This document shows positions 1,578 to 55,403 of a DNA stretch of 64,000 nt, piece by piece. The number at the start of each line of letters is the position of its first letter. Within the stretch, counting starts at the first letter, position 1. The notes beneath the pieces are model-generated. The model did not search any database and was not told where the DNA came from. It saw only the letters and a program-made list of their open reading frames with translations. This DNA is from Haliotis cracherodii (lineage: Eukaryota). The stretch spans positions 17,112,001-17,176,000 of the forward strand of contig NW_027266270.1 in the NCBI RefSeq assembly GCF_022045235.1, written 5' to 3'. Made by a program: the position numbers and the translations under genes.

Positions 1578-2527
1578 CTACTCAGCGCCTTCTGCCTGTT
1601 TCTTTGCCTCTTTCGCGGCCAACTTCTGGTTAATATCGTCCAGGGATACGTCATAGTAATACAACCCGGTTGAAGAATAATCTACCTGAAAAACAAAATA
1701 GTAAAATCAAAAACTTTTGTCACCTATTCAGCGTCACCAAACTAGCTGTATAATTACACACCAAAGTACTTTCTTGTCAATGTTTAGATGACTGTAAGGC
1801 ACTAACATAAAACTGAAATAGACATGGAGGCTTATTGTGCTGCAGTCACATCTAGGCACCGTAATATGTAATACTCCAATCCTGTTCCATATATTTGTCA
1901 GCCATTTAGGTTAAATAATAAGTCACTCACTCTCTGAAGACTCGTTTGCGCCTGTGTTCTTGTGGCAGGAGAACTGCTTAGTGGTGTCAGGCAACAGACA
2001 TTTACTTTTTTATGCACATTGTGTGAGTGGCGGGTGGTACCGGTCGGGCAGGACATGCTTACCCTTTCCGCGAACGCCTGGTGTCATCACTTATTTTCAG
2101 TGATGCATTTATACGGTTTTCTCCGCTATTTTCCCCTTTACACCAGCCCGCCGGAGTCTATCGTGTTGGCTTAACGAGACTGATTACTACTCATGTTCAC
2201 GATCGACAATGTCTTCATACAACATGTGAAACTATAGTTTATAACTGTACACATTAAGTGCAGAAATAAGTTACTCACGTATCCATAGTCCACCACAGCA
2301 CCAACTGCGTACAAGCCGTAGTCATCATAGTTGTATCTGGCGTAGTAATATTCATAATCTCTCTTGTCCTTGTTGTTCTGCTTATCCACGTCGTTTGCAG
2401 AGGCGATGATTGATTTAGCGGCGTTCATGACGTTGTCGCCATTATTCTTGTTTGACCTCTTGGCCCTGGTTAGGGTTCTGGCGGAAGCAACGACAACAAC
2501 GACTGCAAGGATGACGAGGACCTTCAT
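1578..2527 (-). CDS. Gene A copy 1: secreted Tyr/Asp-rich prepropeptide, 118 aa; join(complement 2279..2527, 1578..1685); non-coding exon 1 about 2932..2960
   Basis: Signal peptide MKVLVILAVVVVVASA; RAKR and DKR sites; core DYEYYYARYNYDDYGLYAVGAVVDYGY; donor GTGAGT in phase 0; acceptor TTTTCAG; last exon VDYSSTGLYYYDVSLDDINQKLAAKEAKKQAEGAE then stop; AATAAA on - strand at 1532-1537; exons conserved in three copies. Confidence 0.88.
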
Positions 2528-2931
2528 TCTTGGATCTGTGAATATACATGTTGTAGTCAAAGGTATGGAGGCATGCCAAATAATTTAAATTGGATTCTCA
2601 ATTCTCACAATATCATAAACAATATCACAGTATTATTAACATTTACTGTATATATGTTCAGAAGTTACAAAATCGTCCGGTGCATCAAAACAATGAAAAT
2701 ACATACACAGTGTGGTCAAACAGGTAATGGCAAACTGACCTTTAGGAGTCGTATTGCAAACCTTCTCACCACAATTATTATTCTGACAATCAACGAAAAA
2801 TCATCACAATAGAATTTAAATATTTTTGTTTTCGTCAGAGACAATTATTTCGGGTTTGCTTCAAACTTTACTAAGGCCTTGAATGTAACCCTGAAAAGAA
2901 CTTTTGAGCAAGAGTCGTATAGCATACTTAC

Positions 2932-3235
2932 TTGCAGAGAGCACACGTTGATTTTCCGGTAATTGTACCAAAGTATGGCACCGTTTATATACACTGTGTA
3001 TACCATGTGCCTTCACATATCAGACTTCTGTGTTCACCAAAGATCGGGATAGATAGACACCTCCATCAGTGGGGGGTATCAGTGTCTCGTCTTCTCGGGT
3101 TTCTTCGGTTTCATCAACTACTGTATGGAACGTGGAAGTATTGCAGGATTAAATATCACGGCGCCAAATATAAGCCCTGGCTGAATTGTGATTGTCACTC
3201 ATTCACTGTAGAGGATCGCAAGCAGCTCATATCAG
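2932..3235. promoter_or_regulatory. Bidirectional promoter plus the two non-coding first exons, cassette 1
   Basis: Minus-strand TATATAAA at 2984-2991 with donor GTAAGT at 2926-2931; plus-strand TATAAG at 3169-3174, Inr-like TCATTC at 3199-3204, donor GTATGT at 3236; block conserved in all three cassettes. Confidence 0.72.
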
Positions 3236-3991
3236 GTATGTTCAGTGTACATAGGTTATGAATACCTTTTCTTATTACTTTACACTGATTAATCTAGAAT
3301 CAGTTCTCATATTGATTTTTAGCGTATTTCCAGTACCAATATTTTCGTTTTGAAAAATAACTTGAGAGTGTAACACTCGTGTTGATTATAGCCACAACCT
3401 GCGAATATCCCTGTTCTATATATCCCGGCCTGTAGACAAGAAACACAATCCAGTGATTGATATTTTGAGCAACGATCCACACTATCAACCAAGTCCCCGA
3501 CTCTGACTACCCGGTCCACCAAGTCGCCCCTAACGAGCAGCACGGGTTGATGGAGACCTGGTCTAACCCGGACCAACTCCTGTACTCCCTGGTTATATTC
3601 CCCACGAATACCATCCCTTGTCTCAATCATATTAAGTACCTACTGAAACAGGCAGAAGGAGGAAAATACCATTTAATTACTAAAATAAAATGCACACTCT
3701 GCCAATGGGGTGAGAAAGGATTTGAACTAAACCTAACATGTTTAAATTGAATTTGCTTTTCAATAGGCCAAGCTTGGGAACAAAAACAACATTATCTCGG
3801 TTGTGTACAATACATGTGATAATGTTAAAACCTGGAAAGAATATTTCATAAATTTTTGTACAAATCTCCAGATTTTGTGTTTTTACCTCACCATACTGCT
3901 CTGTAAAGGTGTTTATGAGATTGTAATAATGTTTCCACATCCATACAGTTTTGTATGATCAATACTTGACTTGTATCTCTAAGTGTAAATA

Positions 3992-4255
3992 GACCCGTGA
4001 AGATTCCGGGGTAGAATAGGTCTTCAGCAACCATGCTTGTCGTAAAAAGTGACTATGCTTGTCTTAAAAGGAGACTAACGGGATCGGGTGGTCAGGCTCG
4101 CTGACTTTATGCATGTCATTGATCCCAATTGCGTGATTCGATGCTCATGATATTAATCACTGGTTGTTCTGGTCCTGACTCGATTATTTACATACCGCCG
4201 TCATATAGCTGGAATATTGCTGAGTGCGGCGTTAAACAACAAACCATCCAACCAA
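3992..4255 (+). mobile_element. Non-autonomous retroelement family 2 (GACCCGTGAAG...TCGTAAGAGGCGACTAA...GGCGTTAAACAAC)
   Basis: Repeated at about 3384-3578 (-), 8495-8690, 15283-15551, 23997-24243, 31300-31494, 53058-53155; 3' end resembles SINE family 1. Confidence 0.75.
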
Positions 4256-4936
4256 CTAAGTGTAAATATATTTCAGGTCTTTTCAGTTAAACTCTCACTC
4301 TTACACTGTTGTCTGCACCATCAGCACTATGCAATGAAGTGCATATGACGATCTCACTAAGAGCAAATCTGATTTTTTTGTCAACGGTGGGTTAGCCTTG
4401 TGGTTAAAGCGTTCGCTCGTCACGCCGAAGACCCGTGTTCAAATCCTCACATGGGTACAATGTGTAAAGCCCATTCCTGGTGTATCTCGTCGTGACATAA
4501 CTGGAATTTCACTTCTCCACTACTACACCTGACATGTTAAAACTAAATTTGCTTTTTAATAGCCCATAATTAGCAACAAAAAGAAAATTATCTTGGTTTT
4601 ATACAGTAATAATGATAAATGATAATGTTAAAAGCTGGAATGAATATTTTAAAAATTGTTCTACAAATATCCAGAATTTGTGATTTTACCTGATCCTACT
4701 GATCTGAAAAGATGTTCATGAGATTGTAACAATGTTTTCATGTGCAAACATTTGACTTGTACCTCTGACGTCGCTGCTGAGTGTAAACATAGTTCAGGTC
4801 TTTTCATCCCTCTTAGTCGACTGGGCCACCAGAGTACCACCACCCCCACAAAAAAACGACCCCTCTTTGCAAGAATCTTTCCATACGAAATATAGAGCAG
4901 TAATGAATGATGATGTTCACCATATTTCCTCACAGA

Positions 4937-6090
4937 ATGAACGTCACCTGTGTCTTCCTGTTGGCGCTACTCGTCGCCTTCACCTTGGCTACACCTCGTG
5001 AGTCGAGAATGAACGCCAGAAAACAGGACCGACAGTCACAGCAGTCCAAGGCCGCGCCCGAGAAGTCACAGCAGTCCAAGGCAGCGCCTCAGAAGAGGGA
5101 CGATTTAACCTTCCTCGATTCTGACACGACTTACGGTTCCTCCTCTGTAACTGGATATGAAGATCATGGTTATGTGAGTAGCTGCGAATGAGTGAGTGAG
5201 TGAGTGAGTGAGTATGGTTTTACGCCGCTTTTAGCAATATTCCAGCAATATCACGGCGGGGGACACCAGAAATGGGCTTCAAACATTGTACCCATGTCGG
5301 GAATCGAACCCGGGTCTTCGCGTGACGAGCGAACGCTTTAACCACTAGGCTATCCGACCGCCCCTAACTGCGAATGAAGTGAGTGACTTAAAGTGTAGAA
5401 GTTGACATCACATCAGCGGTTTTCAGATAAGTCATGTTTGGTCGTGAAGAACATTTCGTTTACCAACATTTTTACGATTCTGCTGCCGTTACTGGTTACA
5501 AAGATAGTGGCTACGTAAGATTCTCCGCGTTTAGTAATTAATCACCTCATAAGAACTTATCGATTTAGGTGGACGTTTTCTGAAAATCACTCATTGTTTT
5601 CTTTCGAAAGGGTCAGAAAAAGCGGAGAGGGGGTAGTTTACACTTTTCAATTTGGCATGTTTAAATGGGGTGGGTAAAGGGTTGAGCTGTTCACTCATCA
5701 CACTCAACTTCGTATTGTACAATTTCATATACCAACTAATTGTTCCACAGTTTAACGAGTGGGACTAAAGCATGATGTATGTATGTAAGAAAAAATCGCT
5801 CTCCACTGGTCCCCCACGAGACAGTTGGACAACTTATATTATTAACTGCTCGGTTCACATGTAGTTCCTTGTGATAACATGTACCTGCCTTCACGCCATA
5901 CAACAAATGTACAATGACGAGTGACATCAGACACCCACCATTTGTTCCACAGTATAACCAGTATGACTACGGGTATGGATGGCTCGAGTACTACAACAAA
6001 GATGAGGAGCAACAGGAAGCCAAGCAGGAGACGCAGCAGAGACGCCGTCGTCGTAGAAGGGCAGTTCCCGTTGTCAGACGAGTACAGTAG
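4937..6090 (+). CDS. Gene B copy 1: secreted Tyr/acidic prepropeptide with poly-Arg tail, 124 aa; join(4937..5173, 5953..6090)
   Basis: Acceptor CACAG just before ATG; signal peptide MNVTCVFLLALLVAFTLA; KR then DDLTFLDSDTTYGSSSVTGYEDHGY; phase-0 GTGAGT donor; acceptor TTCCACAG; last exon YNQYDYGYGWLEYYNKDEEQQEAKQETQQRRRRRRRAVPVVRRVQ then stop; AATAAA at 6125. Confidence 0.88.
5192..5364 (-). mobile_element. tRNA-derived SINE family 1, full-length with target-site duplication CTGCGAATGA
   Basis: A/B-box tRNA head GGGGCGGTCGG..TAGTGGTTAAAGCG..GGTTCGATTCC and (ACTC)n tail; other copies about 4385-4510, 7350-7590, 16515-16620, 27770-27900, 31091-31217, 55666-55793, 58160-58270, 58810-58918, 61407-61496. 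Confidence 0.85.
5473..5520 (+). pseudogene. Relic duplicate of the 3' end of gene B coding exon 1 (YDSAAVTGYKDSGY plus GTAAGA donor) inside B1 intron
   Basis: About 34/42 nt identical to the B2/B3 exon end; no in-phase acceptor found. Confidence 0.6.
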
Positions 6091-6205
6091 ACATGGAGCT
6101 GTAACACAACTGTAACGTTATTGAATAAACCTTGGAATCTATTTGCTTGTCTATCATTGCTCGAATATTGCTTTAAACTCACTCACTCGTTGTATTTATA
6201 TAGAA

Positions 6206-6488
6206 GTGAGTGAGTGAGTGAGTTGAGTTTAACGCCGCTTTTAACAGTATTCCAGTTATGTACGGCGTGTCAGCTTAATGTGGGAGGAAAGCCCCAAGTG
6301 TATGCAGGTCTCAGACATTTACCACTTCGGTGAAACCCACGAGCACGGGTATGGTGCTGACAAACCTAGAAACATAATCGGGGCGAACCGGAATTCGAAC
6401 CCACAATCATAGGTGTCTGGCGTGCCCAAGGGACGCAACTCTGCACAGCGAATCGCGGCGCCTTTGACGACTGGGCCACCCGTGCCCC
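6206..6488 (-). mobile_element. tRNA-derived SINE family 3
   Basis: Head GGGGCACGGGTGGCCCAGTCGTC..GGTTCGAAT; copies about 19885-20120, 25091-25370, 30675-30952, 57047-57320. Confidence 0.8.
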
Positions 6489-11125: not shown

Positions 11126-12044
11126 CTACTCCACGCCTTCTGCCTGTTTCTTTGCCTCTTTCGCGGCCAACTTCTGGTTAATGTCGTCCTGGGATACGTC
11201 ATAGTAATACAACCCGGTTGAAGAATAATCCACCTGAAAAACAAAATACCAAATAATAACACTCAAATTTTGTATGAAAATATTGGGCAAAATATAAAGA
11301 TGTTCTCACATTATGTGTATAAAATATGATAAACATTACAGCTTCTGGTTTCAAATTTGAAATTTTCCCTAAAAACAATTTACTTGAGATCATGTACCTA
11401 CTGTAACTGGTGCATGCAGGCAAAGATGATGTAAGCAAAGATCATATTTTGGAAATCTACTTTATCACTCTATGTAGTTACGATCCCAATTGCGTGGATC
11501 GATGCTCATGATATCACTCATGTCTGGTCCATGTGAGTGCGGCGTCAAACAACCAACCAACACTCTCAGCAAGTTCTCGGTACCAGTATTTCGACTTGAT
11601 GCGAGAGCTCCTCATCCCTATAGTTAGCTAGGTATACAACACTGGGAAGAATAAACCTCCTTCGTAAACTTTCGATCATGAACTTGGTGGTTATATTGAT
11701 GTCCATAACTTCCTTTCGTAAACAGCATTTAATCTGTGAAATTGGTACACCAGTACCTGCTGTTTAACAATCCGGTTTTGATATAAGTTACTCACGTATC
11801 CATAGTCCACCACAGCACCAACTGCGTACAAGCCGTAGTCATCGTAGTTGTATCTGGCGTAGTAATATTCATAATCTCTCTTGTCCTTGTTGTTCTGCTT
11901 GTCCACGTCGTTTGCAGAGGCGATGATTGATTTAGCGGCGTTCATGACGTTGTTGTCATGATTCTTGTTTGACCTCTTAGCCCTGGTTAGGGTTCTGGCG
12001 GAAGCAACGACAACAACGACTGCAAGGATGACGATAACCTTCAT
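11126..12044 (-). CDS. Gene A copy 2, 118 aa; join(complement 11796..12044, 11126..11233)
   Basis: Same exon lengths and splice sites as copy 1; core peptide identical; tail DVSQDD...EGVE. Confidence 0.88.
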
Positions 12045-12868
12045 GTTTGGATCTGTGAATATACATAAAATATATATCAAAGGTATGAAAAATAATCTCG
12101 TTAAGTAGTCAAAAATAAAAAAAATATCCCAATAACATTGACTTCTACCATAAAATATGACAAAAAACTTAAATGTATTTTAAATCCTCCAAATACGATT
12201 TATCTTAAGTTATGTTTGCCACTTTGGATTAGTTTAAGAGATATGATTAAACATGATATACGTCAACGATAGTCACAGCATGTAATTATATAAACTCGAG
12301 CTTCACGTTATGGAACGTCACTTGTATTTAACTCCAACGAGAAATAAGTTGACCCTCATCAGCGGATGGACCGCTCGGGTAACCAGGATGAGCTGTGGCC
12401 TGCACCCTTATTGTAACGAGTTGGGTGTACGGGGCTTTCAAGAGTACATGTATTTAAAAAATATAACCGCTTGTGAGCCTAATGTGAGAGAGAAGCCCGA
12501 AGTGATGAAAGTCTGTGTGACGTTGACCACTTTGGAGTAACCTTGAACAGAGGTATGAAAGTTCCGCTTTCAAATCCAAAGGGGTACAAATCAACTGGAG
12601 CAGTCTCCATTATATTAATATAAAATGTCACTATATTCTCTAAGAACCTGAACCAAACAAACACAATATGCACATATGTACATTTGCAACATTGTTAAAT
12701 AGAGTAATAGTCAAGAGAATGTATGAATTCAATACGCCAAGAACGAGGTGAAAATATATTTTTAATTTGTTAAGATATTTGTACAAAATTCATATTGCAA
12801 ACATAGACTGTTCCTGACCAGGGAACAATGCTATAATATAGCAAATGTAACAATGAAACTTTACTTAC

Positions 12869-13172
12869 CTGCCCAGTTGATATCTCGACATTCACACAGA
12901 CTATTTTGATAAATTGCTAAACTATAAAAGCATTTATATTACTATGAGCCTCCAAATATCGGACTTCTTTGTTTACTGTAGATTCCGACTGATAGAAATA
13001 TCCTTTGACCGTGCAGGTCAATGAAAGGGTATCCGTGTCGCGTTTTCTCAGCAACTACTGTATGGAACATGGAAGTACTGCAGGATTAAATATCAAGACA
13101 CAGAATATAAGCCCTGCGTGAATTGTGAATGTCATTTCTGTACTGAAGAGGATCCCAAGCAGCTCGAATCAG
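12869..13172. promoter_or_regulatory. Bidirectional promoter plus non-coding first exons, cassette 2
   Basis: Minus TATAAA at 12933-12938 with donor GTAAGT at 12863-12868; plus TATAAG at 13106-13111 with donor GTACGT at 13173. Confidence 0.72.
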
Positions 13173-13754
13173 GTACGTTCTGTGTAAATTAGGAGAAAAA
13201 CCTATTCTGTTATAAAATATACGGTGGTTCATCGTTGATCAAATACGGCTAAATATAACCACCTCAAAATTTAAAAACAGAATGTTTATCTACATTCTAC
13301 AAAAACTAAAATGCGTTTTTTAACGGATTCCTTTTCTTGCGGACGTATTTACCGCAGTGATGCATTCAGTAGTGATGCGTTTATTAACATTAACCAATCA
13401 AATTTGATCATCCTTCAATAGAATAAGTAATGTGCACCTTACTTATCCCCATAAACCTAGTCGGTAAGGTAGCCAATGGTTGAAGAGTTTGTTCTTGTTG
13501 AATAGTTGCAGAGTGAAAAAGGTTGCTGTGTTGTGGTCTTGTGTACACAAGTAAGGCAAAGAAGCATTGTTTGCGGAGAGTCGGTGGATGGGTGGCCGTG
13601 TACGGCAGCTTGACTTCAGAGAGTTTCTTTGTCTTTGGTCCTGCCCCACATGTAGCTAGCACATGCGGTGTCTTCTTGGGCAAATGACTTTGTTCAAAAT
13701 ATGTTTCATGGTCACCCAGCAGTAAATGGGTACCCGGCAGGATGGGATGGTATT

Positions 13755-13928
13755 GTGAGTGAGTGAGTGAGTGAGTATGGTTTTACGCCGCCTTTAGCAA
13801 TATTCCAGCAATATCACGGCGGGGGACACCAGAAATGGGCTTCACACATTGTACCCATGTCGGGAATCGAACCCGGGTCTTCGGCGTGAAGAGCAAACAC
13901 TTTAACCACCAGGCTACCCGACCGCCCC
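13755..13928 (-). mobile_element. SINE family 1 copy
   Basis: Full length; flanking repeat GGATGGTATTGTGA. Confidence 0.85.
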
Positions 13929-14579
13929 TGGATGGTATTGTGACTGTTAACTTTGTAGAGCCTCACAGGCAGCTTGGGTTGTATACTCTGAAGTGAGAAT
14001 GAGAGTGTGAGTGCACACGGGTCCAATGACCAGGGAGAAAATAAAGCAGCGCTTCGAGTATACACCAGCTGTTTGAAGTTATATTCCATCACTCACGCCC
14101 TCAAAACCAGCATCAGATTGAGGTTATTCAGTACAGCAAGCTGCAAAAACCATTACTTATTACCGCGAGTGATTACAGGCTATATCACATATTACTCTAT
14201 GTCGGTCGCAAGGCTCTTCTTAACTGAAAACTTGACCGGCGCCGCCATTTTGATTATAAATATTATGATAAGTGGAATCTGATTTGTCAATAGAAGGGAC
14301 ATAACTCGTTATTGTCACTGGTGGCGCTACACTCTAGCCGCGAAATTCCAGCTTAGTTCGGCAAGGGTGAAACTGAACTTTTACAGTCAGTTAACTCACT
14401 TACCTTAGGAAGATGCTTAGTGGGGATTGACAGATTAATTATAGTATTACTAATATAAGTGAGTGAGTTTGTATTTACGCCGCTTTTAGCAATATTCCAG
14501 CAATATCACGGCGGGTGACAGTAAGATGAAAGAATTGGGGCTTCTTTAATTTCTTTTGGGTAATTTAGATGGAGTGACA

Positions 14580-14625
<46 letters not shown>

Positions 14626-14788
14626 AACTACAAAACTGGTTACAGTTCATGCGAACAATATAGAGTTCAACTGGCTTTAATATATTACAATGATTATCAT
14701 GGAAATTGCAGAATCATGAGAATATTAGACATAAAGCAATAACTGTAGCATACATTTCGATGAAAGGTTGGATATATTTCTCCACAGA

Positions 14789-16360
14789 ATGAACGTTACA
14801 TTTGTCTTCGTGGTGGCTTGCCTCGTGGCCTTGACCTTGGCTACACCTCGTGACGCGAGGAAGAACGATAGAAAACAGGACCGACAGTCACAGCAGTCCG
14901 AGGCAGCGCCCGAGAAGAGGGACGCTTTAAACTTCTTCGATTATGACACGACTTACGGTTCTTCTTCCGTTACTGGTTACGAAGATCATGGTTATGTGAG
15001 TATTTGAGGTGAACGATTTCTGAGTATTTCGCAGTGCAGGATTTTTGCACCATTATAATGACGTCACGCTATAGCTCTTGCAGTTGATTCAGAGCCAGGA
15101 ATTCACTGGCCATTCAAACGGTTAAAAGGGCTAATTATAAGTATATGTAATTCTACATTTAATGTGCACCAAACTGAACAGAAAAACATGTGTATCATGT
15201 GGATACGATCGAGGTATGTCAGTTAAACTCATCTTCTTATGATATACGCGTACCATGACGTCTGAATCACACCATCTTCTCTGGACCCGTGACGATCCGG
15301 GGTAGAATAGGTCTTCAGCAACCCATGCTTGCCGTAAATGGCGACTATGGTTGTCGTAAGAGGCGACGAACGGGATCGGGTGGTCAGGCTCACTGACTTG
15401 GTTGATACGTGTCATCGATCCCAATTGCATGGGTCGATGCTCATGATATCAATCACTGGATTGTCTGGTCCAGACTCGATTAATTACATACCGCCGTCAT
15501 ATATCTGGAATATTGCTGAGTGCGGCGTTAACAACAAACCAACCAACCAACCGTCTGTGCAAGACAAGTTAAGACTGTCAGCTATGGTCAGCGCCTCGTT
15601 TTTCTTGCCGCTGCAACTGAACTTGGAGTTTCCCCGACTTCCCAGATCTTTAAGGCACGATTAAAGACTCACCTTTTCTTGTGCGCTTCGAGTATACATT
15701 GCGTAAGGAGTTGTGCGCCTTACAATTAATTAAGGTCATTATCTTAAATGTCGGATTCTGATTGGCCGATTCTATTCTTTTTAATGAACCCTGCATGCAT
15801 ATAAGGTAGTTTTTTTATTTTCCCCGCTCGAATTTCCAAACTGTTGGCGTTACATTTGCAACATACCAATTGCAGTTTTGTATCTCGAATGAATCATGTG
15901 AGAAGCCATTCTCATGATATATACGTTATTTACGTATGGCATATCCAGGGGGAGTAACTCTTAGTATGTTTTCAGTCTGCTATTTTTGGACTGATTTGAA
16001 ACAATGAACAAAACGAATAAATTCCTAACTCATATTCTTACCTGATTCGGACTCTTGCATGAAAGTAGATAAGATAAATTCGTTGTCTATTAGTTTCCCT
16101 CCCTTATATTATTAACTGCTCGGTTCACATTTAGTTCCTTGTCATAACACCTCCCGGCCTTCACACCATACAACATGTGTACAATGACGAGTGACATCAG
16201 ACACCCACCATTTGTTCCACAGTATAACCAGTATGACTACGGGCTGGGATGGCTCGAGTACTACAACAAAGATGAGGAGCAACAGGAAGCCAAGCAGGAG
16301 ACGCAGCAGAGACGCCGTCGTCGTAGAAGGGCAGTTCCCGTTGTCAGACGAGTACAGTAG
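14789..16360 (+). CDS. Gene B copy 2, 114 aa; join(14789..14995, 16223..16360)
   Basis: Signal peptide, KR-DALNFFDYDTTYGSSSVTGYEDHGY, same splice sites as copy 1, last exon YNQYDYGLGW...RRRRRRRAVPVVRRVQ. Confidence 0.88.
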
Positions 16361-17002: not shown

Positions 17003-17495
17003 ACTGTGCCAACTATTTCATATTTTACATGACATATACATGCCAATACAAATACTTACTTGTCTTTACCAAGCCAGTGTGCCCACTATTTCATATTTTA
17101 CATGAAATATACATGCCAATACAAATACTTACTTGTCTTTACCAATCCAGTGTGCCCACTGTTTCATATTTTACATGACATATACATGCCAATACAAATA
17201 CTTACTTGTCTTAACCAAGCCAGTGTGCCCACTGTTTCATATTTTACATGACATATACATGCCAATACAAATACTTACTTGTCTTAACCAAGCCAGTGTG
17301 CCCACTATTTCATATTTTACATGAAATATACATGCCAATACAAATACTTACTTGTCTTTACCATGCCAGTGTGCCCACTATTTCATATTTTACATTACAT
17401 ATACATGCCAATACAAATACTTACTTGTCTTTACCAAGCCCGTGTGCTTACTATTTCATATTTCCAAGAAATATACATGCCAATACAAACACATA
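17003..17495. repeat. 73-bp minisatellite, about 6.5 copies
   Basis: Period seen in sequence and in staggered ORFs 17060 and 17133. Confidence 0.9.
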
Positions 17496-20704: not shown

Positions 20705-22560
20705 CTACTCAGCGCCTTCTGCCTGTTTCTTTGCTTCTTTCGCGGCCAACTTCTGGTTAATATCGTCCTGGGAAACGTCATAGTAATACAACCCGGTTGA
20801 AGAATAATCCACCTGAAAAACAAAATGCCAAATAATAACTCTGTAGTGAACGTGATATGTCATTTAATCATCACCCTTTCTCCCCCTCGCTGCAGTTAAT
20901 AGTGTTTGAAGCGGTGTAAATAAAAGCGACAGAACCCTTTCCATATCCAGATGAAATCTCTGCCAAAAACATAGATCACTGTCCGATTCCGACTATATCA
21001 TGAGCATTTGTTTATGACTCGCTATCAAATAGTGATGATACCAGGTGTTCGCCCATCAGTGGCACCTGTCACAAACACATGCAAAGGCAAGTCAATTGAA
21101 TTCACTCACAATGGCTCCATATGCACATGTAACTGAAATATGCATTATAATATGAGGAAACCTAGAGTTATTATAGAATAGAATAGAATTTTTTGCACAA
21201 GACGCCCTCGTTGGGGCATAGAACAAGCATAATACATTTGGTACATTTGAACAACACACACGTACACATTCATGAACACACACACACTACTACTACTGTA
21301 ACGGGCTTGTAAGACGAAAACATATTGGAATAATTTATAGTCAAAACTAGTCACTCAGATGTACTAGTCACTCTGATGTACTAGTCACTCTGATGTACTA
21401 GTCACTATGATGTTCTAATCACTCTGATGTACTAGTCACTCTGATGTACTAGTCACTCTGATGTACTAGTCCCTCTGATGTACTAGTCACTCTGATGTAC
21501 TAGTCACTATGATGTACCAGTCACTCTGATGTACTAGTCACTCTGATGTACTAGTCACTCTGATGTACTAGTCACTCTGATATTCTAATCACTCTGATGT
21601 ACTAGTCACTCTGATGTACTAGTCACTCTGATGTACTAGTCATTCTATATGTACATGCAACCCGTTAATTCACGTGGAACGTATTTTAGTACGATCCAGT
21701 TGAATGACAAAAACAAAAATGTTAAATACTATTGCGAAATACGTGATATACCTGATCCTATTGGGAACCCATGGGGTAATATTAGACGACAATACTAACC
21801 ACATATATATAGTGCTTATACGTGAATTTACAATAGAGCTGAGTATAAATATTAGGACTTGGTTTTCGATACCTTATCAGCGTGATAAGGCAACTCCTGC
21901 ATCCTCTTTAAGACAAGTTTAAGGAACATCCAATTTTATCTGGGTTTTTAAAAAAAATACAAATGTGTTTTGCTACTTTTTTCAGATAATGTGTATAAAA
22001 CCTGAATATGTCTCTAAAAATATACATAAAACATTTACCAACTGTGACTGATGCGGTATGTTAGCAAAGATACTTTGTCTCGCTATTTAAATTCTTAGCG
22101 AGAACATAAATACATTCCTAATCCCTACGTTTACGCTAGTTATACAACACTTGAAAAATTGCCCGCCTTATAAACTTACGTTCATGAATGCATGAATGCA
22201 CTTGGTGGATATGAATTCCTTTCGTACACAACATTCAATTTGTGAAATTATTTGAAAATGCTACAACAGTGCCTGCTGTTTAACAATCCGGTTTTGATAT
22301 AAGTTACTCACGTATCCATAGTCCACCACAGCGCCAACTGCGTACAATCCGTAGTCATCGTAGTTGTATCTGGCGTAGTAATATTCATAATCTCTCTTGT
22401 CCTTGTTGTTCTGCTTATCCACGTCGTTTGCAGAGGCGATGATTGATTTAGCGGCGTTCATGACGTTGTCGTCACGATTCCTGTTTGACCTCTTAGCCCT
22501 GGTTAGGGTTCTGGCGGAAGCAACGACAACAACGACTGCAAGGATGACGAGGACCTTCAT
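20705..22560 (-). CDS. Gene A copy 3, 118 aa; join(complement 22312..22560, 20705..20812)
   Basis: Intact frame with the same exon lengths; core identical at protein level with synonymous changes only. Confidence 0.88.
21345..21650. repeat. 17-bp minisatellite (GTACTAGTCACTCTGAT)n in gene A3 intron
   Basis: Direct inspection. Confidence 0.92.
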
Positions 22561-23234: not shown

Positions 23235-23558
23235 TTGCACAGTTGAAACCTCGATATTCACACAGAATACAATGTATGTTACATTGCTAAACTTTAATAG
23301 CATTTATATTAACATGAACCTCCAATTATCGGACTTCTGTGTTCACTGAAGATTCCGACTGATAGAAATATCCAGTCACCGTGCCTATCAAATTGAGGGT
23401 ATCCATGTCTCGTCTTCTCAGGTTTCTTCAGTTTCAGCACCTAGTAGATAGAACATGGAAGTATTGCAGGATTAAATATCAAGGCACAGAATATAAGCCC
23501 TGGGTGAATTGTGAATGTCATTCCTGTACTGTAGAGGATCCCAAGCAGCTCGAATCAG
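23235..23558. promoter_or_regulatory. Bidirectional promoter plus non-coding first exons, cassette 3
   Basis: Minus TATAAA at 23303-23308 with donor GTGAGT ending 23234; plus TATAAG at 23492-23497 with donor GTACGT at 23559. Confidence 0.72.
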
Positions 23559-40500: not shown

Positions 40501-42690
40501 ACCACCACTGCCATCACCACAACCACACACACACCCCTCCCCCACTGCCATCACAAAAACCTCCACCACTGACATCACAACCACCACCACCACACCCCAT
40601 CCCACCACCACTGACATCACAACCACCACCACCACACCCCATCCCACTACCACTACCACACTCCGTCCCACCAGCAGTGCCACCACAACCACACACACAC
40701 CCCTCCCCCACTGCCATCACAAAAACCACCACCACCACCGCACCCCATCCCACTACCACCACCACACTCCATCCCACCACAACTGCCATCACCACCACCA
40801 CCACCACACCCCATCCCACCACCACTGCCATCACAACCACCACCACACCCCATCCCACCACCACCACCACACCCCATCCCACCACCACTGACATCACAAC
40901 CACCACCACCACCACACCCCATCCCACTACCACTACCACACCCCATCCCACCACCACTGCCATCACAACCACCACCACCACACCCCATCCCACCACAACT
41001 GCCATCACAACCACCACCACCACACCCCATCCCACTACCACTACCACACCCCATCCCACCACCACTGCCATCACAACCACCACCACCACACTCCATCCCA
41101 CTACCACCACCACACCCCATCCCACCACCACTGCCATCCCACCACCACCACCACACCCCATCCCACTACCACCACCACACCCCATCCCACCACAACTGCC
41201 ATCACAACCACCACCACCACACCCCATCCCACTACCACCACCACACCCCATCCCACTACCACCACCACACCCCATCCCACTACCACCACCACACTCCATC
41301 CCACCACCACTGCCATCACCACCACCACCACCACACCCCATCCCACCACAACTGCCATCACAACCACCACCACCACACCCCATCCCACTACCACCACCAC
41401 ACCCCATCCCACTACCACCACCACACTCCATCCCACCACAACTGCCATCACCACCACCACCACCACACCCCATCCCACCACAACTGCCATCACCACCACC
41501 ACCACCACACCCCATCCCACCACAACTGCCATCACAACCACCACCACCACACCCCATCCCACCACCACTGACATCACAACCACCACCACCACCACCACAC
41601 CCCATCCCACTACCACCACCACACCCCATCCCACCACAACTGCCATCACCACCACCACCACCACCACACTCCATCACGACTAGCGCTGCCATCACAACCA
41701 CCACCACACACAATCACGACTAGCGCTGCCATTAAAATCACCACCACCACCACCACTACTACCACACACCATCCCGACCACCACCACCACCACCACACAC
41801 CATCACGAGTAGCGCTGCCATTACAATCACCACCACCACCACCACCACTACCATCACAACCACCACCACTGCCATCACCACAACCACCACCACCGAACTC
41901 CATCACGACTAGCGCTGCCATCACAATCACCACCACCACCACCACACACCATCACGACTAGCGCTGCCATCACAATCACCACCACCACCACCACACACCA
42001 TCACGACTAGCGCTGCCATCACAATCACCACCACCACCACCACACACCATCACGACTAGCGCTGCCATCACAATCACCACCACCACCACCACTACCACAC
42101 CCCATCCCACCACCAGTACCACACTCCATCCCGACCAACACTGCCATCCCCCCCCCACCACCACCACCACCGCCACACCCCATCCCACTACCACACCCCA
42201 TCCCACCACCACACCCCATCCCACCACCACCCCCCCCCACCACCACCACCACCACCGCCGCCGCCACACACCATCCCATCACCACTACCACACCCCATTC
42301 CACCACCACTACCACACCCCATCCCACCACCACTACCATCACAACCACCACCACTGCCATCACAACTACCACCACCACACCCCATCCCACCACCACTACC
42401 ATCACAACCACCACCACTGCCATCACAACTACCACCACCACACCCCATCCCACCACCACTACCACACCCCATCCCACCACCACTACCACACCCCATCCCA
42501 CCACCACTACCACACCCCATTCCACCACCACTACCATCACAACCACCATCACTGCCATCACATCTACAACCACTACCACACCCCATCCCACCACCACTAC
42601 CACACCCCATCCCACCACCACTACCATCACCACTACACCCACACACACACCTCTTCCCACATCTCCAGCCTGACCCCACTGCACACACCC
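37520..42690. repeat. About 5.2-kb CAC/ACC-rich low-complexity satellite built from units such as ACACCCCATCCCACCACC and ACTGCCATCACAACC
   Basis: Directly visible; long ORFs in several frames on both strands are by-products. Confidence 0.93.
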
Positions 42691-43283
42691 CAAGAATTCA
42701 TTGAAAAAGCAGTTAATCGTTAGATCTTACCTCACACATCCCTTGACGTTGGTCACCAGGTCTGCCAGATCAACAACCTACCTCCCATATGTCTGACTTC
42801 CGAGACGAAAGTATAAATACTCATGCCATTAATAAATACGTAATGTGTTCTTTTCATTTCGAGACAGGGTTCCTTGTCAAATATCGTTGCAACTAGAACA
42901 TGAGGGGCTCCCCCGCTGATCTCATCAAAGTCTGATTCCTTAAACGAACGCACAAATCGATCGATATTGGTCAGCTTATTCTATAAAGACGAAAGCGCAT
43001 TTGCTTAAATGTAAATTCTGTCATTATCTGTCTGTATTAGCGGTGAACCGAACCTACATGCACCTCATTATCAGCCTTAAGCTTGACGCACTTTTATTTT
43101 ATCTTGGAAACGTAAGGTAATGAGCATGACGTTTTCTTTACATTTAAAGGCTCGCAGGCATCGTGCTGACTTTATTACTAAACCTGTTACATGAGTGTGG
43201 TATATCCCCTGGCACCAATGGTTACAAATGATGGATGCGCGTGCACTGGCTGCGAAGTTGCTGGTCATCAAAACAGCAGCGAA

Positions 43284-50300: not shown

Positions 50301-53300
50301 ATTATCTTTTACAACACTCTCATAATTCCATAAGGAATGGCCCAAGTATTATCATTCAAAGCTATCATTCTAATGTAATACTGTGTATAGTACACTGTGT
50401 ACATCGGTGTGAGATTATAATAAATAATTTATCTGCTATCAACCAAATCACCGAACCTGACCACCTGATCCATTAAACCGCCTCCTGACCCCTGACTTTT
50501 GACCGGTCTGTTTGATGGTTGTGGAGGTTCTTAAACTTAACTGGAATGTCATTCTTAGTGACCAGAGTAGATGGACACCCAATGGTATGATGTAGACTCT
50601 TCCAATATGCACTAATAACACAACTTGATTGGTGATCAAAACCTTTCAAGGGGATAGGCGTTCACTCAAAATTCAACTGTCAAATGTTAACTTCAGCTTC
50701 TAAGCTTTTGGGCTAACTAGTTACCTTTCTGGAACAGACTATAATCCCCCAGCCCCATGCCCTTAATCCTCCCGGATTTCAGTTTGGAGCTAACAAGGAA
50801 GATCCCGTTCTAATTGGGAATCCACACCGGACTTAAAAGGCAATCTACCACCTTTCTGTTTTCAGGATTAATTGCAACAATCGGCAACGTCTTAGTGCTG
50901 GTTGTGTTCTACAAGCATAAGAAGCTGAGGAAGAATCCCCACAACCAGCTGCTTCTGAACCTCGTTATCTCCGACCTAGGCATCTCTCTGTTTGGCTACC
51001 CGCTGACAACATCGTCTAATTATGCTGGCAGATACCTGTTTGGGAAAGTTGGTTGCGTCATACAAGGCTTCTTGACTTTCACCCTGGCACAGACCGACAT
51101 GAATACACTGGCTTGTTTGAGTGTCTATCGTTTCATTGCAGTGTGTATGCCGGGGGATGGTAAGAGTTTGTCTTAAAGCCCTTAAAACACGTGGTAAATA
51201 TATATTACCCAAAACAAATTAAACAACACCAACTATTGGAAGACTGTGTTGCAATACCACCAGCCATGAAAGATTAACTAAAGTCTTATGAAAACGATCG
51301 GGTGTTCTTTAACTTCTTAAAGTAGTATACATGTATATTAATTTTGTTAACATTACATTAGTAAGTCTGCATTCAGCTTAACATAGGCTAGAGATATACT
51401 GGAGTCTAGTTAATCGGCATTTTCTTTTTACGACACTTTTAAATATACACAACGTTTGTTTAGGAAACGGTGCAACCTCGTCCATCCGGATTTTTTGCAT
51501 ATGTTCAAAATCTGTCCGTTGTTAAAGTGATCACGTACCAGGCAGACCGACTGCAAATGTGGGTATCATTTCGAAGATGCTTTCCATTTTCTGCTTACCT
51601 GCGGAAACCACGCAAATATTAGAAATAACATGTATTTTACACCTATGGATAACAACAGATGACAACAGTTTTATACGACAGATCTTCATTCAGCGGTGCA
51701 AACGACATTGAAATTCTTAAATCAGTCCACGATTTTACTGTAAAAAGTAACAGATTTGAATAGTAATTATAATAATCTGAATACATTTTTGATAAAATAT
51801 TGAAATTGAGATACTTCATGCCTTTAACTCAGACACGACCAGCTCTCACTTACGGTTACAGCTTAATTTATGTTTTGTACATAGATATTCAACATGACCA
51901 TATTTATATAATGTCACCAACTGTATTCTGTATTTCCTGGCGCGGTATTTATATAAGTAATGTTTTGCATGTTTACTGATCCAGATTTCATTTAAGAAAT
52001 AAAAATATGAACACAATGTCATTTAGAAAGTGGTCAAATGTAACAAATGTTTTTATCTGGGATAACACTTTAAGTGCCTCACTCTGGCGGCGTGGGTTCG
52101 AATCCCGGATGGGACTCAACCCCCCAAAAGTACGAGAATCTGTACTTTTACAAAGAAAGTGTTATCCCAATTATAATTTTTTTTACATTTGACCACTTGC
52201 TAAATGGAATTGTGTGTTCATATTTTTCAGCAATGTTAGCCGGGCCAATTTACACTTGTCAGAGTGTCGTACTTTCATTTTTGTGGAAGCCTCGGTGGTA
52301 TAGGGGAGGTTTGCTCGGGTCCAGAATCAAGTGGATAAAGGTGGTTCTGGTGAGACTGGAAGACGTTTGACCGATGTTTTATTAGGAGGGAACAACAGGG
52401 ACATATGAGGAGCGTCTCAAAATTAAAAATAAATTGACCCATCCGAAGTTGGTCTTTCAGGAGTTGGAATTTAGCCTCTCCATGTCAGTTTTTCTTCCAC
52501 TTTGGGGCCCGCTTGCCGCCTACCTCACATTGCACGTGTAGTGTTGCGTTGGTCCAAATTCTGACTTTTATAACATTTCAACCAAATTCATATTCACAAG
52601 AAATAAAGAAAGACATTTTATTAGAGTGTTTCATCATAAACTACAATTTGCACAACACCCGAAACATTTAAAAAAAATATATAATCATAAATGGTTACCC
52701 TGAGCTGTCATTGACTGTCGATAACGGGCGACGCAGATCTTGATCAGTAATTGCCAAGATGTCTATGCATGTTTGGTTTTGTTACATCTGTAGCTGAAAC
52801 TTTCGAAGCACAATATTTTGCCTCCACGATATAAAGGCATAATACTGCAAGTGATGATAACAAATCCGAATTACCAAGACGTAAGAAACAGTGCGCCAAT
52901 GTATCTTTACCAGTGTTTTATGAACATTTGAAAAATGCAAGTCTTTGAAGGGCATTTAGAAATGATCCACATACGGAAGAGAATACTATAAGCGCTAATT
53001 TACTGTTAAGTGTTGGCTTCGACCAATCATTGCTAATTACGTATCAGTGCCAATTATCCCCGTGAAGATCCGGATTAGAATAGGTCTTCAGCTTGCTTTA
53101 AAAGGCGACTAACGGGATCGGGATTGGTTGATGCATGTCATCGATCCCAATTGCGTCGACACCCACTCACAATAAAGTCACACAGCAATTCAAAATCAAC
53201 ACCTCAACACTATGTATCTATCTATGTATTAGTACAAATGCCATTTCTAATTTGTGTTACAAAATACAAATTCAAGCCTGGAATCAGTGACACCTCCATG

Positions 53301-55371
53301 TTTAACTTCAGTTCACCGCCTAACCCGTTCTGTGACCATCAAAGTGATAATATTCCTGTGGGTGTATTCCCTTTTATGGACCGTCCCTCCGCTTCTGGGC
53401 TGGAGCGCCTATACCTACGAACCCTTCGGGACCTCCTGCAGCATAGACTGGGACGACGAGGACTCTGGAGCTGTCGCTTACACATGGTGCCTTATTGTCT
53501 ACTGCTACCTCCTCCACATCATCATCATAGCCTACTGCTACTACAAGATCGCCATGAAGGCCAAGGAGGTCCACTCAAGGCTCAAGCATTTTACCATTGG
53601 GGGAATATGCAACTCCGATTCCATGTGCCTGCGACGTGTTCAAATGGAGCGGAAATCAAGCCTTGTAAGTTCATTCATTCATTCATTCATTCATTCATAA
53701 AAAAAACTGCCTTTTTATAACACTCTGCTAGTTGCGCATGTACAGTAACTGTACACGTCACTTCTGTGTTCACGAATGGCCTAGTCGTCTTAGGCGCCGC
53801 ATTAAACTATGCAGGAATCAGAAACCCATGATCGAATCCCGGGCCCCGATTGTATTTCTTGGTTTGTCAGCACCACTCACTCACTCGCTCGCTCNNNNNN
53901 NNNNNNNNNNNNNNNNNNNNNNNNNNNNNNNNNNNNNNNNNNNNNNNNNNNNNNNNNNNNNNNNNNNNNNNNNNNNNNNNNNNNNNNNNNNNNNNNNNNN
54001 NNNNNNNNNNNNNNNNNNNNNNNNNNNNNNNNNNNNNNNNNNNNNNNNNNNNNNNNNNNNNNNNNNNNNNNNNNNNNNNNNNNNNNNNNNNNNNNNNNAC
54101 ACAATACAAGGGTTGATATAAAAACAAGTTCAATGAAACGGTCAGTTTGTTAAATGTATGGGTGTGTAAAAAATTACAAGTAAAGTCTTTGTTCGTCAAA
54201 TAATATTGAAAATTCAATAATTTCCCCAAAATATGTAATCAACGCAGGCATGTTTAAAACAATATGAACCAAATTGATTTCAATTCATTACCTGTTTTAC
54301 ATCTTAAACCATGATTTTGACTACTATGCGATTCCCTCCCGTACATACTGAATTTGATAAACAATATCTTTCCCCAGTAAATGAGCACAGTTGCCTGTTC
54401 AGGCCGAAACTAATAAAATCCGTATTAAATAATAAAAATGCTTGTACTGTCAATTCAATTATTCATGTGAAAGTCATGTTCCAAAAACGAATTATTACAA
54501 ACAATTGACAAAATTAGAAATGCATGGATTTTCTTTAAAATTCCCCAAATAAACCACGGAGGCAGAATAACCTGCTTGGAATTTTTAGTTTAATTAAGCA
54601 TACGTGCGTCTACGACTGTCATAACTTTACGATATGTTTGTTTCTATTGTTAAACGTCGCCCCCGCAATATTCGGTTACATCTTGATCGGTCGAATGTCA
54701 AGACTGAATTTGATCTGATCGGTCAAAACCCGCTTGAGCGTATTCCACCCTGATCGGTCGAATGTCAAGACTGAGTTTGATCTGATCGGTCAAAACCCGC
54801 TTGAGTGTATTCCATCCTGATTGGTCGAATGTCAAGACTGAATTTGATCTGATCGGTCAAAACCCGCTTGAGCGTATTCCACCCTGATCGGTCGAATGTC
54901 AAGACTGAATTTGATCTGATCGGTCAAAACCCGGTTGAGTGTATTCCACCCTGATCGGTCGAATCGGTGTGGCTGACCAGGCTTGACGGCCTCCAGGGCC
55001 CACTTGCACAAAGCGATCTTAGCGCTACAACTATTGTAAGCCTACAATGTATGTTAAAGTATGGGAGTTACGATCATCATATTCTTCATATCTCAGTGCT
55101 CCCTAAGTGAAAAAAATCAATTTAAATAAATTAAATATGAATAGGTGGCCGAAGTCGTATTATGTGATGGTTTATATTTGTTATATTTGTTTGTATGTTT
55201 TTGAAGGAGAATACCCCAATTTCTTGTTTTCATATAATTCTACGTGAGTAGAGGCAGATGGTTTGATGCCCCGCGCTATTGTATTTCCTGGTTTTATTAA
55301 GATGCGTCTTACGTTTCAACATTAGGTTGAAGCGGTCGTTAAACTCCAAACTACTACAACTACTACTACTA

Positions 55372-55403
<32 letters not shown>

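What the first reader, a model, noticed from the sequence alone, without database searches (positions are those of the whole stretch)
2279..5173. A and B are cryptic paralogues with an identical Gly register and intron position
Seen: A YGLYAVGAVVDYGY|VDYSSTG aligns without gaps to B YGSSSVTGYEDHGY|YNQYDYG, giving YG-x3-V-x4-D-[YH]-GY, a phase-0 GTGAGT intron at the same residue, then Gly at +7. Both have the same 3-exon layout and a later EAK motif. Inference: an old inverted duplication made the pair. Gly turns spaced 11 and 8 residues suggest matching beta-meanders that could pair as a hetero-sheet or fibril. The Lys-rich helical tail of A (QKLAAKEAKKQ) and the Glu-rich tail of B (DEEQQEAKQE) are charge-complementary.
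Basis: partly seen in the sequence, partly recalled or inferred. Interest (0 to 1): 0.75.

Follow-up and report, generated by a model that had tools for sequence, protein, structure and literature searches.

The report
Abalone head-to-head paralogous secretory gene pairs
Abalones carry three tandem copies of a back-to-back pair of small, unnamed genes that are very likely distant copies of one ancestor and are predicted to release short acidic, tyrosine-rich secreted peptides, probably ingredients of an external material, in a gene layout that recalls silkmoth eggshell genes.

Summary
The window is Haliotis DNA, most likely H. cracherodii. A (minus) and B (plus) are spliced genes annotated by RefSeq as 'uncharacterized', set head-to-head with TATA boxes about 180 bp apart; the pair is repeated three times. 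Common ancestry holds up. Of 222-232 ungapped offsets, the best is the one that superposes the introns (3 of 3 pairs; anchored p 1-3e-4). A mixed A+B profile found an unnamed protein, P0012, with an A-like propeptide and a B-like exon-end motif. Sequence-only tests are weak (BLASTP E 0.07, HHalign 1.9%). The structural story is not supported. Only 3 of 4 (A) and 3 of 5 (B) core glycines are in register, EAK is four residues off and lost in B3, and both predicted mature peptides are strongly acidic (-7, -11). B's real C-terminus is an invariant Arg7 block. Best reading: co-regulated, dosage-amplified prepro-proteins, likely cut by convertases into 6-7 kDa Tyr/Asp-rich, largely disordered peptides for an extracellular material. 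Tissue and function are untested. Relatives were found only in Haliotis and on two unnamed contigs; no paper in the library held the gene ids or six motifs searched.

The parts
1578..1685 (-). A1 exon 3 CDS (35 aa + stop): Tyr-rich stretch, then predicted helix; AATAAA 41 nt after the stop
   Evidence: splice seen as loose ends in X1 and X3
2279..2535 (-). A1 exon 2: ATG at 2527, hydrophobic signal-like N-terminus, RAKR and KR dibasic sites, Tyr/Asp-rich start of the mature peptide, shared 14-residue motif (2320-2279), phase-0 GTGAGT donor
2932..2960 (-). A1 non-coding exon 1 (5' end approximate; inferred)
   Evidence: donor at 2931 and TATA at 2984-2991, matched in units 2 and 3; not shown by RNA
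2984..3174 (.). Putative bidirectional promoter: opposed TATA boxes about 180 bp apart (173-189 bp in the three units)
   Evidence: mean column identity 84% over the three aligned regions
3197..3235 (+). B1 exon 1 (5' end approximate), donor at 3236
   Evidence: RefSeq models P0010 and P0014 read the matching exon
4936..5173 (+). B1 exon 2: ATG at 4937, signal-like N-terminus, propeptide with a 10-aa internal duplication, KR site, shared motif (5132-5173), phase-0 GTGAGT donor
5472..5519 (+). Decayed copy of the B exon-2 end with its GT donor inside B1 intron 2 (81% to B2 and B3); no in-frame acceptor upstream
5725..5767 (+). Decayed copy of the B exon-3 acceptor and start (79%), with a stop after five codons
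   Evidence: and the sequence
5953..6090 (+). B1 exon 3 CDS: Tyr-rich, Glu/Gln-rich predicted helix, Arg7 block and invariant 9-residue tail; AATAAA 34 nt after the stop
   Evidence: splice joint in X1 and X3
11126..16360 (.). Unit 2: A2 CDS 12044-11796 and 11233-11126 (-); B2 CDS 14789-14995 and 16223-16360 (+)
   Evidence: A2 is identical to XP_071099448.1
20705..27504 (.). Unit 3: A3 CDS 22560-22312 and 20812-20705 (-); B3 CDS 25568-25774 and 27367-27504 (+)
   Evidence: A3 is identical to XP_071099449.1

Best explanation
A and B are spliced head-to-head genes, repeated three times as a pair, that very likely descend from one ancestral gene, are probably co-transcribed from a shared ~180-bp promoter, and are predicted to encode secreted precursors whose acidic Tyr-rich peptides likely serve as bulk ingredients of an extracellular material. 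Shown: gene structures, tandem triplication, exon 2-3 splicing of both genes in the same two runs, conservation of the motif, absence of Cys from the predicted mature peptides, net charges. Strongly inferred: common ancestry by an old duplication with inversion, followed by tandem amplification of the whole pair. Inferred from family knowledge: the signal peptide is removed, furin/PC-type convertases cut at RAKR and KR (A) and at KR and Arg7 (B), and 62-aa and 54-aa peptides are released (14 and 9 Tyr; net -7 and -11), largely disordered with a C-terminal helix. Least certain: after secretion the Tyr would be cross-linked (di-Tyr or DOPA) or sulfated and the acidic residues would bind Ca2+; B's Arg7 tail would neutralise the acidic cargo in the granule until it is cut off. 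A defined A:B heterodimer is not required.
For: Ancestry; bridge P0012, propeptide like A (p 0.003; against B p 0.63) and exon-end motif like B (p < 5e-5), Val right after the motif as in intron read-through of all six window genes. Same layout: ATG 1 and 8 nt into exon 2, KR-Asp 25-27 residues before the intron. Selection on the motif: B1 against B2, 6 synonymous and 0 non-synonymous changes in the last 14 codons of exon 2, with 4 non-synonymous in the 11 codons before; the motif is kept in 5 of 5 A and 5 of 5 B RefSeq proteins aligned; differences listed in A's motif in runs X1, X7 and X11 are synonymous. Co-regulation: conserved promoter region; spliced contigs of both genes in X1 and X3, two studies. 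Bulk product: copy amplification, and contig depths in the thousands in X1 and X3 against 4-5.5 for A in X6, X7 and X11 (a poor measure of expression, a hint only). Analogy: silkmoth chorion A/B pairs (PMC4639761, passages).
Against: Unanchored similarity is weak: BLASTP E 0.073, HHalign probability 1.9%, mature-region local alignment p 0.065 for A1/B1 and 0.0066 for A3/B2; the A and B propeptides do not match each other (p 0.26). P0012 was found with a mixed profile that favours mosaics (A-only E 0.04, B-only E 240), its regions were chosen after seeing it, its motif does not match A directly (anchored p 0.055), and its organism and DNA were not seen. No tissue is known. Six motifs were absent from the 27 supplements of an H. 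laevigata shell proteome, which speaks mildly against nacre or prism matrix, though that species may be too diverged for exact motifs. Cleavage and modification are not observed. The 9 residues after Arg7 are invariant, which is odd for a discarded piece.
Confidence: 0.5

Rival explanations
1. The genes are paralogues, but they encode signalling peptides (hormone, neuropeptide or water-borne pheromone precursors), perhaps Tyr-sulfated; the conserved 14-residue motif would be the receptor-binding core.
For: Prepro layout with dibasic sites; purifying selection centred on the motif; 5 of 14 Tyr in A and 5-6 of 9 in B lie in an acidic context by a simple rule; sub-threshold Pfam Conotoxin match to B's signal and pro region only (E 2e-4, 22.6 bits under the 25.1 cut-off).
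Against: No amidation signal (Gly before basic residues) and no repeated short peptides in the sequence; no passing Pfam family; six motifs absent from the one supplement of an H. discus hannai ganglion transcriptome and peptidome paper; not HGAP, which has nine conserved Cys.
Confidence: 0.2
2. One reading: the A and B cores form matching beta-meanders that pair into a hetero-sheet or fibril, held by charge-complementary helical tails.
For: G(-13), V(-9), G(-2) are kept in A, B and P0012; A's core is beta-prone (mean Chou-Fasman 1.14) and AlphaFold puts two short strands there (low confidence); the head-to-head layout would fix the ratio.
Against: Register only partly shared and B's core is polar (1.03; no strand in the model); both peptides are strongly acidic and the A tail is about neutral; EAK is off register and not conserved.
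Confidence: 0.1
3. A defence secretion: convertase cleavage frees B's 16-residue cationic tail (net +9) as an antimicrobial peptide, with the acidic parts as inhibitory pro-regions or carriers.
For: The tail is invariant in 3 of 3 window copies and 5 of 5 aligned RefSeq proteins; net +9, with Val-rich end; tandem amplification is common in immune genes (own knowledge).
Against: Arg7 is itself a convertase site (own knowledge), so little cationic peptide would survive; A has no such tail; invariance is unlike fast-evolving immune peptides.
Confidence: 0.1
4. A and B are unrelated; two Tyr/Gly/Asp-rich secreted precursors resemble each other by composition, and the intron match is luck.
For: BLASTP E 0.073 and HHalign 1.9%; no DNA similarity beyond 15-nt words; propeptides unrelated; low-complexity sequences inflate shuffle tests; P0012 could be a recombinant of neighbours.
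Against: Shuffles keep composition and still give p about 1-3e-4; best diagonal equals the intron register; an in-frame A/B mosaic is easiest to explain if both share one layout.
Confidence: 0.07

Closest known systems
RefSeq 'uncharacterized protein' models: H. cracherodii XP_071099444-449; H. rufescens LOC124111266, -267 (A) and -268, -286, -289, -290 (B)
   Same: These are the same genes or their orthologues; A2, A3 and B1 are letter-for-letter identical to XP_071099448.1, -449.1 and -447.1.
Silkmoth chorion A/B gene pairs (PMC4639761 and PMC13409908, passages read)
   Same: Two diverged branches of one superfamily in head-to-head pairs with a short shared promoter between TATA boxes (330 nt for HcA/HcB), tandemly repeated, with a small exon 1, encoding small secreted structural proteins.
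   Different: No sequence link (no Pfam pass); three pairs, not 44; three exons, not two; dibasic pro-regions and acidic Cys-free products; tissue unknown and co-expression not shown at cell level. At most a convergent layout.
Haliotid growth-associated peptide HGAP (PMC11108583, passages)
   Same: Abalone-specific, small, secreted, with a predicted pro-cleavage site.
   Different: HGAP is 96 aa with nine conserved Cys; mature A and B have none.
Abalone sperm FITZAP/sp6 (recalled, no call)
   Same: Small, disordered, acidic plus basic blocks, processed precursor; a model for B's zwitterionic layout as a packaging aid.
   Different: FITZAP is recalled as fast-evolving with poly-Asp; A and B are 88-99% identical between copies and species and Tyr-rich.

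Membership tests
A and B as one gene family | Intron at the same aligned codon and phase | tested here: met
   Best ungapped diagonal equals the intron register, rank 1 of 222-232, in 3 of 3 pairs; all phase 0.
A and B as one gene family | Significant unanchored sequence or profile similarity | tested here: inconclusive
   BLASTP E 0.073; HHalign 1.9% with shallow profiles; mature local p 0.065 and 0.0066.
A and B as one gene family | Intermediate sequence linking both | tested here: met
   P0012, E 9.7e-7 with the mixed profile; propeptide like A, motif like B; its DNA and organism were not seen.
Silkmoth chorion A/B proteins | Conserved alpha or beta central domain | tested here: not met
   No chorion family among the Pfam matches for the four exon translations.
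Silkmoth chorion A/B proteins (works like) | Head-to-head paralogue pairs, short shared promoter, tandem repetition | tested here: met
   against.
Silkmoth chorion A/B proteins (works like) | Coordinated expression in one secretory tissue and incorporation in one structure | tested here: inconclusive
   Spliced contigs of both genes in 2 of 4 runs laid on both; tissues are coded, no protein data.
Neuropeptide or hormone precursors | Signal peptide and dibasic cleavage sites | tested here: met
   Read from the sequence; no dedicated predictor was run.
Neuropeptide or hormone precursors | Known family motif, or detection in a ganglion peptidome | tested here: not met
   No passing Pfam family; six motifs absent from the supplement of PMC6523705.
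Haliotis nacre or prism shell-matrix proteins | Peptides detected in the shell matrix | tested here: inconclusive
   0 occurrences of six motifs in 27 supplements of PMC6003135; a different species, exact matching only.
Functional hetero-amyloid | Cross-beta co-assembly of A with B | not testable with these tools
   Needs ThT, CD, EM or fibre diffraction; single-chain models are low confidence.

The most novel reading that the evidence does not exclude
Abalones independently evolved a silkmoth-chorion-like system: one ancestral secreted gene split into A and B branches locked on a bidirectional promoter, amplified as a pair to deliver a fixed-ratio, two-component material whose setting is triggered by convertase removal of B's Arg7 counter-charge, with Ca2+ and Tyr cross-links or co-fibrils hardening it.
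Probability: 0.15. Interest if true: 0.7.

Novelty: new member of a known kind. Interest (0 to 1): 0.4.

Why it matters
It joins two sets of 'orphan' abalone proteins into one family, a link that BLAST and profile comparison miss but intron position and an intermediate reveal. It is a clean small example of how mollusc lineage-specific secreted proteins arise by duplication and fast divergence. If the products form a material, two peptides of 54 and 62 residues are easy to synthesise, so a two-component marine biomaterial becomes directly testable, and the chorion-like gene layout would be a case of convergent genome design.

Tried and rejected
Complex prediction of mature A with mature B: no answer, score 0.00 against a mark of 0.34, alignment not used, controls not folded; not evidence either way. 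A:A and B:B could not be run (one job). AlphaFold2 of A (mean pLDDT 43.3) and B (54.6): too low for a fold search, none run. ESM Atlas: best scores 0.83 and 0.81, under the 0.9 lead level. PDB sequence search with A4: 0 hits. Pfam: no A or B match passed a cut-off. Full-length shuffle tests (z 5-6) were set aside because shared signal peptides inflate them. No RNA holder is listed on record; the runs are RNA by guess, and I rely only on their spliced contigs. Exon 1 of A2 and B2 had no joint or cover in 4 of 4 runs; A had no cover in X9 and X14, and B exons none in X14 and next to none in X6: none of this counts as evidence. The 5505-5953 joint was read as the ordinary B exon 2-3 splice laid on the relic copy, not as use of the relic. 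No whole genome is held, so no genome-wide background for donor sites and no search for further paralogues. Literature: six LOC ids 0 papers, six peptide motifs 0 papers; keyword searches gave nothing on these genes in the listings. PMC2989941 passages: no match. PMC6262867 passages: no sulfotyrosine in limpet pedal glands, so no support for a sulfated pedal-mucus role. Supplements of other abalone papers and subscription journals were not seen and may hold these sequences. Earlier scan notes: nothing near or alike.
Full report
Setting. The window is abalone DNA. Three of its six predicted proteins are identical to H. cracherodii RefSeq 'uncharacterized' models, and H. rufescens has close orthologues. 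No whole genome is held. The A/B pair occurs three times in tandem, each time A on minus and B on plus, head to head. Opposed TATA boxes lie 173-189 bp apart in a region with 84% mean column identity across the units. Each gene has an AATAAA 34-61 nt after its stop.

Gene structure. In 6 of 6 genes exon 2 ends in Gly-Tyr with a phase-0 GTGAGT donor. Contigs of runs X1 and X3 (two studies; RNA by guess) join exon 2 to exon 3 for both A (loose ends at 1682 and 2276) and B (joint to 5953). B exon 1 is supported by RefSeq models P0010 and P0014, whose N-terminal extension is the translation of that exon. A exon 1 is inferred from a TATA box and donor only; one search showed no joint. In both genes the ATG sits within 8 nt of the start of exon 2.

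Is the resemblance real? Plain tests are weak: BLASTP E 0.073, HHalign probability 1.9%, local alignment of mature regions p 0.065 for A1/B1 and 0.0066 for A3/B2, and no DNA match longer than 15-nt words. The intron gives an anchor that is independent of the alignment. Among all ungapped offsets of the full proteins, the best is the one that superposes the introns: 1 of 232, 1 of 222, 1 of 222. Anchored at the intron, with the best window allowed in the shuffles too, p is 0.00034, 0.0001 and 0.0002; the exon-3 side alone over 29 residues gives p 0.004-0.011. The three pairs are near-copies and count as about one test. MAFFT reaches the same register unaided.

The bridge. A mixed A+B profile run over 1,835,955,588 representatives returned 4 proteins: A, B, an A exon-3 orthologue (P0013) and P0012 (E 9.7e-7). 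P0012 comes from an unnamed 451-bp contig. Its propeptide matches A (p 0.003) and not B (p 0.63); its exon-end motif matches B (p < 5e-5) and only marginally A (anchored p 0.055). The motif is followed by Val and then by sequence unlike either exon 3, as intron read-through gives in all six window genes; the intron itself is inferred, since its DNA was not seen. Caveats: the mixed profile favours mosaics (A-only E 0.04, B-only E 240), the regions were chosen after the fact, and P0012 could be a recombinant. A further search with P0012 included found 6 of 3,937 candidates: five Haliotis A or B proteins and P0012 itself. I put common ancestry at about 0.9.

Selection. B1 against B2 has 6 synonymous and 0 non-synonymous changes in the 14 motif codons, and 4 non-synonymous changes in the 11 codons before. 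The motif is kept in 5 of 5 A and 5 of 5 B RefSeq proteins aligned, with H or Q at -3 in B; these cover only two closely related species. In P0012 only the aromatic residue at -14 and G-13, V-9, G-2 of the shared pattern remain.

Core glycines stand at -13, -8, -2, +7 in A and -13, -7, -2, +7, +9 in B. The first seven residues of exon 3 alone are not significant (p 0.15-0.18). EAK is four residues off register and absent from B3 and P0003. The predicted mature peptides are both acidic (-7 and -11), the last 20 residues of A are -1, and the strongly cationic part is B's own Arg7 tail (+9), which the finding leaves out. AlphaFold models are low confidence: helical N- and C-terminal parts, two short strands in A, none in B.

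Mechanism. From the sequence and general knowledge of convertases (not tested), signal peptide removal and cuts at RAKR and KR (A) and at KR and Arg7 (B) would give 62-aa and 54-aa Cys-free peptides with 23% and 17% Tyr. Pair-wise amplification and a shared short promoter suggest co-ordinated bulk output. Contig depths in the thousands in X1 and X3, against 4-5.5 for A in X6, X7 and X11, point the same way but are a poor measure. I favour an extracellular material, set by Tyr cross-linking or sulfation and Ca2+ binding, with the Arg7 tail as a removable counter-charge (0.5 overall). Rivals are signalling peptides (0.2), a defined hetero-sheet (0.1), a defence peptide (0.1) and convergence (0.07). 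The tissue is the missing fact.

Comparison with what is known. No Pfam family passes, there is no PDB relative and no Atlas lead. The closest layout is the silkmoth chorion locus, with head-to-head A/B pairs from two branches of one superfamily on short shared promoters (PMC4639761 and PMC13409908, passages); A and B work like that in layout but are not members. They are not HGAP (PMC11108583, passages). Six motifs were not found in the supplements of PMC6003135 (27 files) or PMC6523705 (1 file). Gene ids and motifs gave 0 papers; supplements of other papers and subscription journals were not seen.

Verdict. A real, apparently undescribed family link and gene arrangement, with function inferred. 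New member of a known kind; interest 0.4.

Noticed in passing
window 5472-5519 and 5725-5767 (+): B1 intron 2 holds decayed copies of the exon-2 end with its donor (81%) and of the exon-3 acceptor and start (79%): the remains of an internal duplication, not found in B2 or B3. A contig in X1 covers 5448-5868 with 38 differences.
   Followed up: partly
P0012 (unnamed 451-bp contig): A third family type, or a distant orthologue, with an A-like propeptide and a B-like motif; its exon 3 and organism are unknown.
   Followed up: partly
window 50814-60834 (+): Three exons of a rhodopsin-family GPCR (Pfam 7tm_1); the helix-7 Lys suggests an opsin (label recalled, not tested). It lies about 23 kb beyond the cluster.
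   Followed up: partly
window 32824-36780 (+): Broken LINE-like element with endonuclease- and reverse-transcriptase-like ORFs in several frames (label from recall).
   Followed up: no
window 37481-42723: About 5 kb of CAC/ACC-type simple repeats with extreme strand skew, giving long spurious ORFs.
   Followed up: no
window 5193-5365, 4057-4244, 6205-6488 and many copies: At least three abundant short interspersed repeat families, some starting at a TGAG microsatellite; up to 26 matches in the window. One sits 20 nt after the B1 donor.
   Followed up: no
window 3726-3950 and 4522-4753: A 230-bp direct duplication (79%) inside B1 intron 1; B1 also has a 10-aa duplication in its propeptide.
   Followed up: no
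window 23515-23558 (+): B3 exon 1 has an in-frame ATG that would add 15 residues before the signal peptide (RefSeq P0014); B1 lacks this ATG, so it is probably not the real start.
   Followed up: partly
window 17005-17495, 21346-21654, about 53900-54100: Two short tandem arrays between the units, and a run of N in the GPCR gene region.
   Followed up: no
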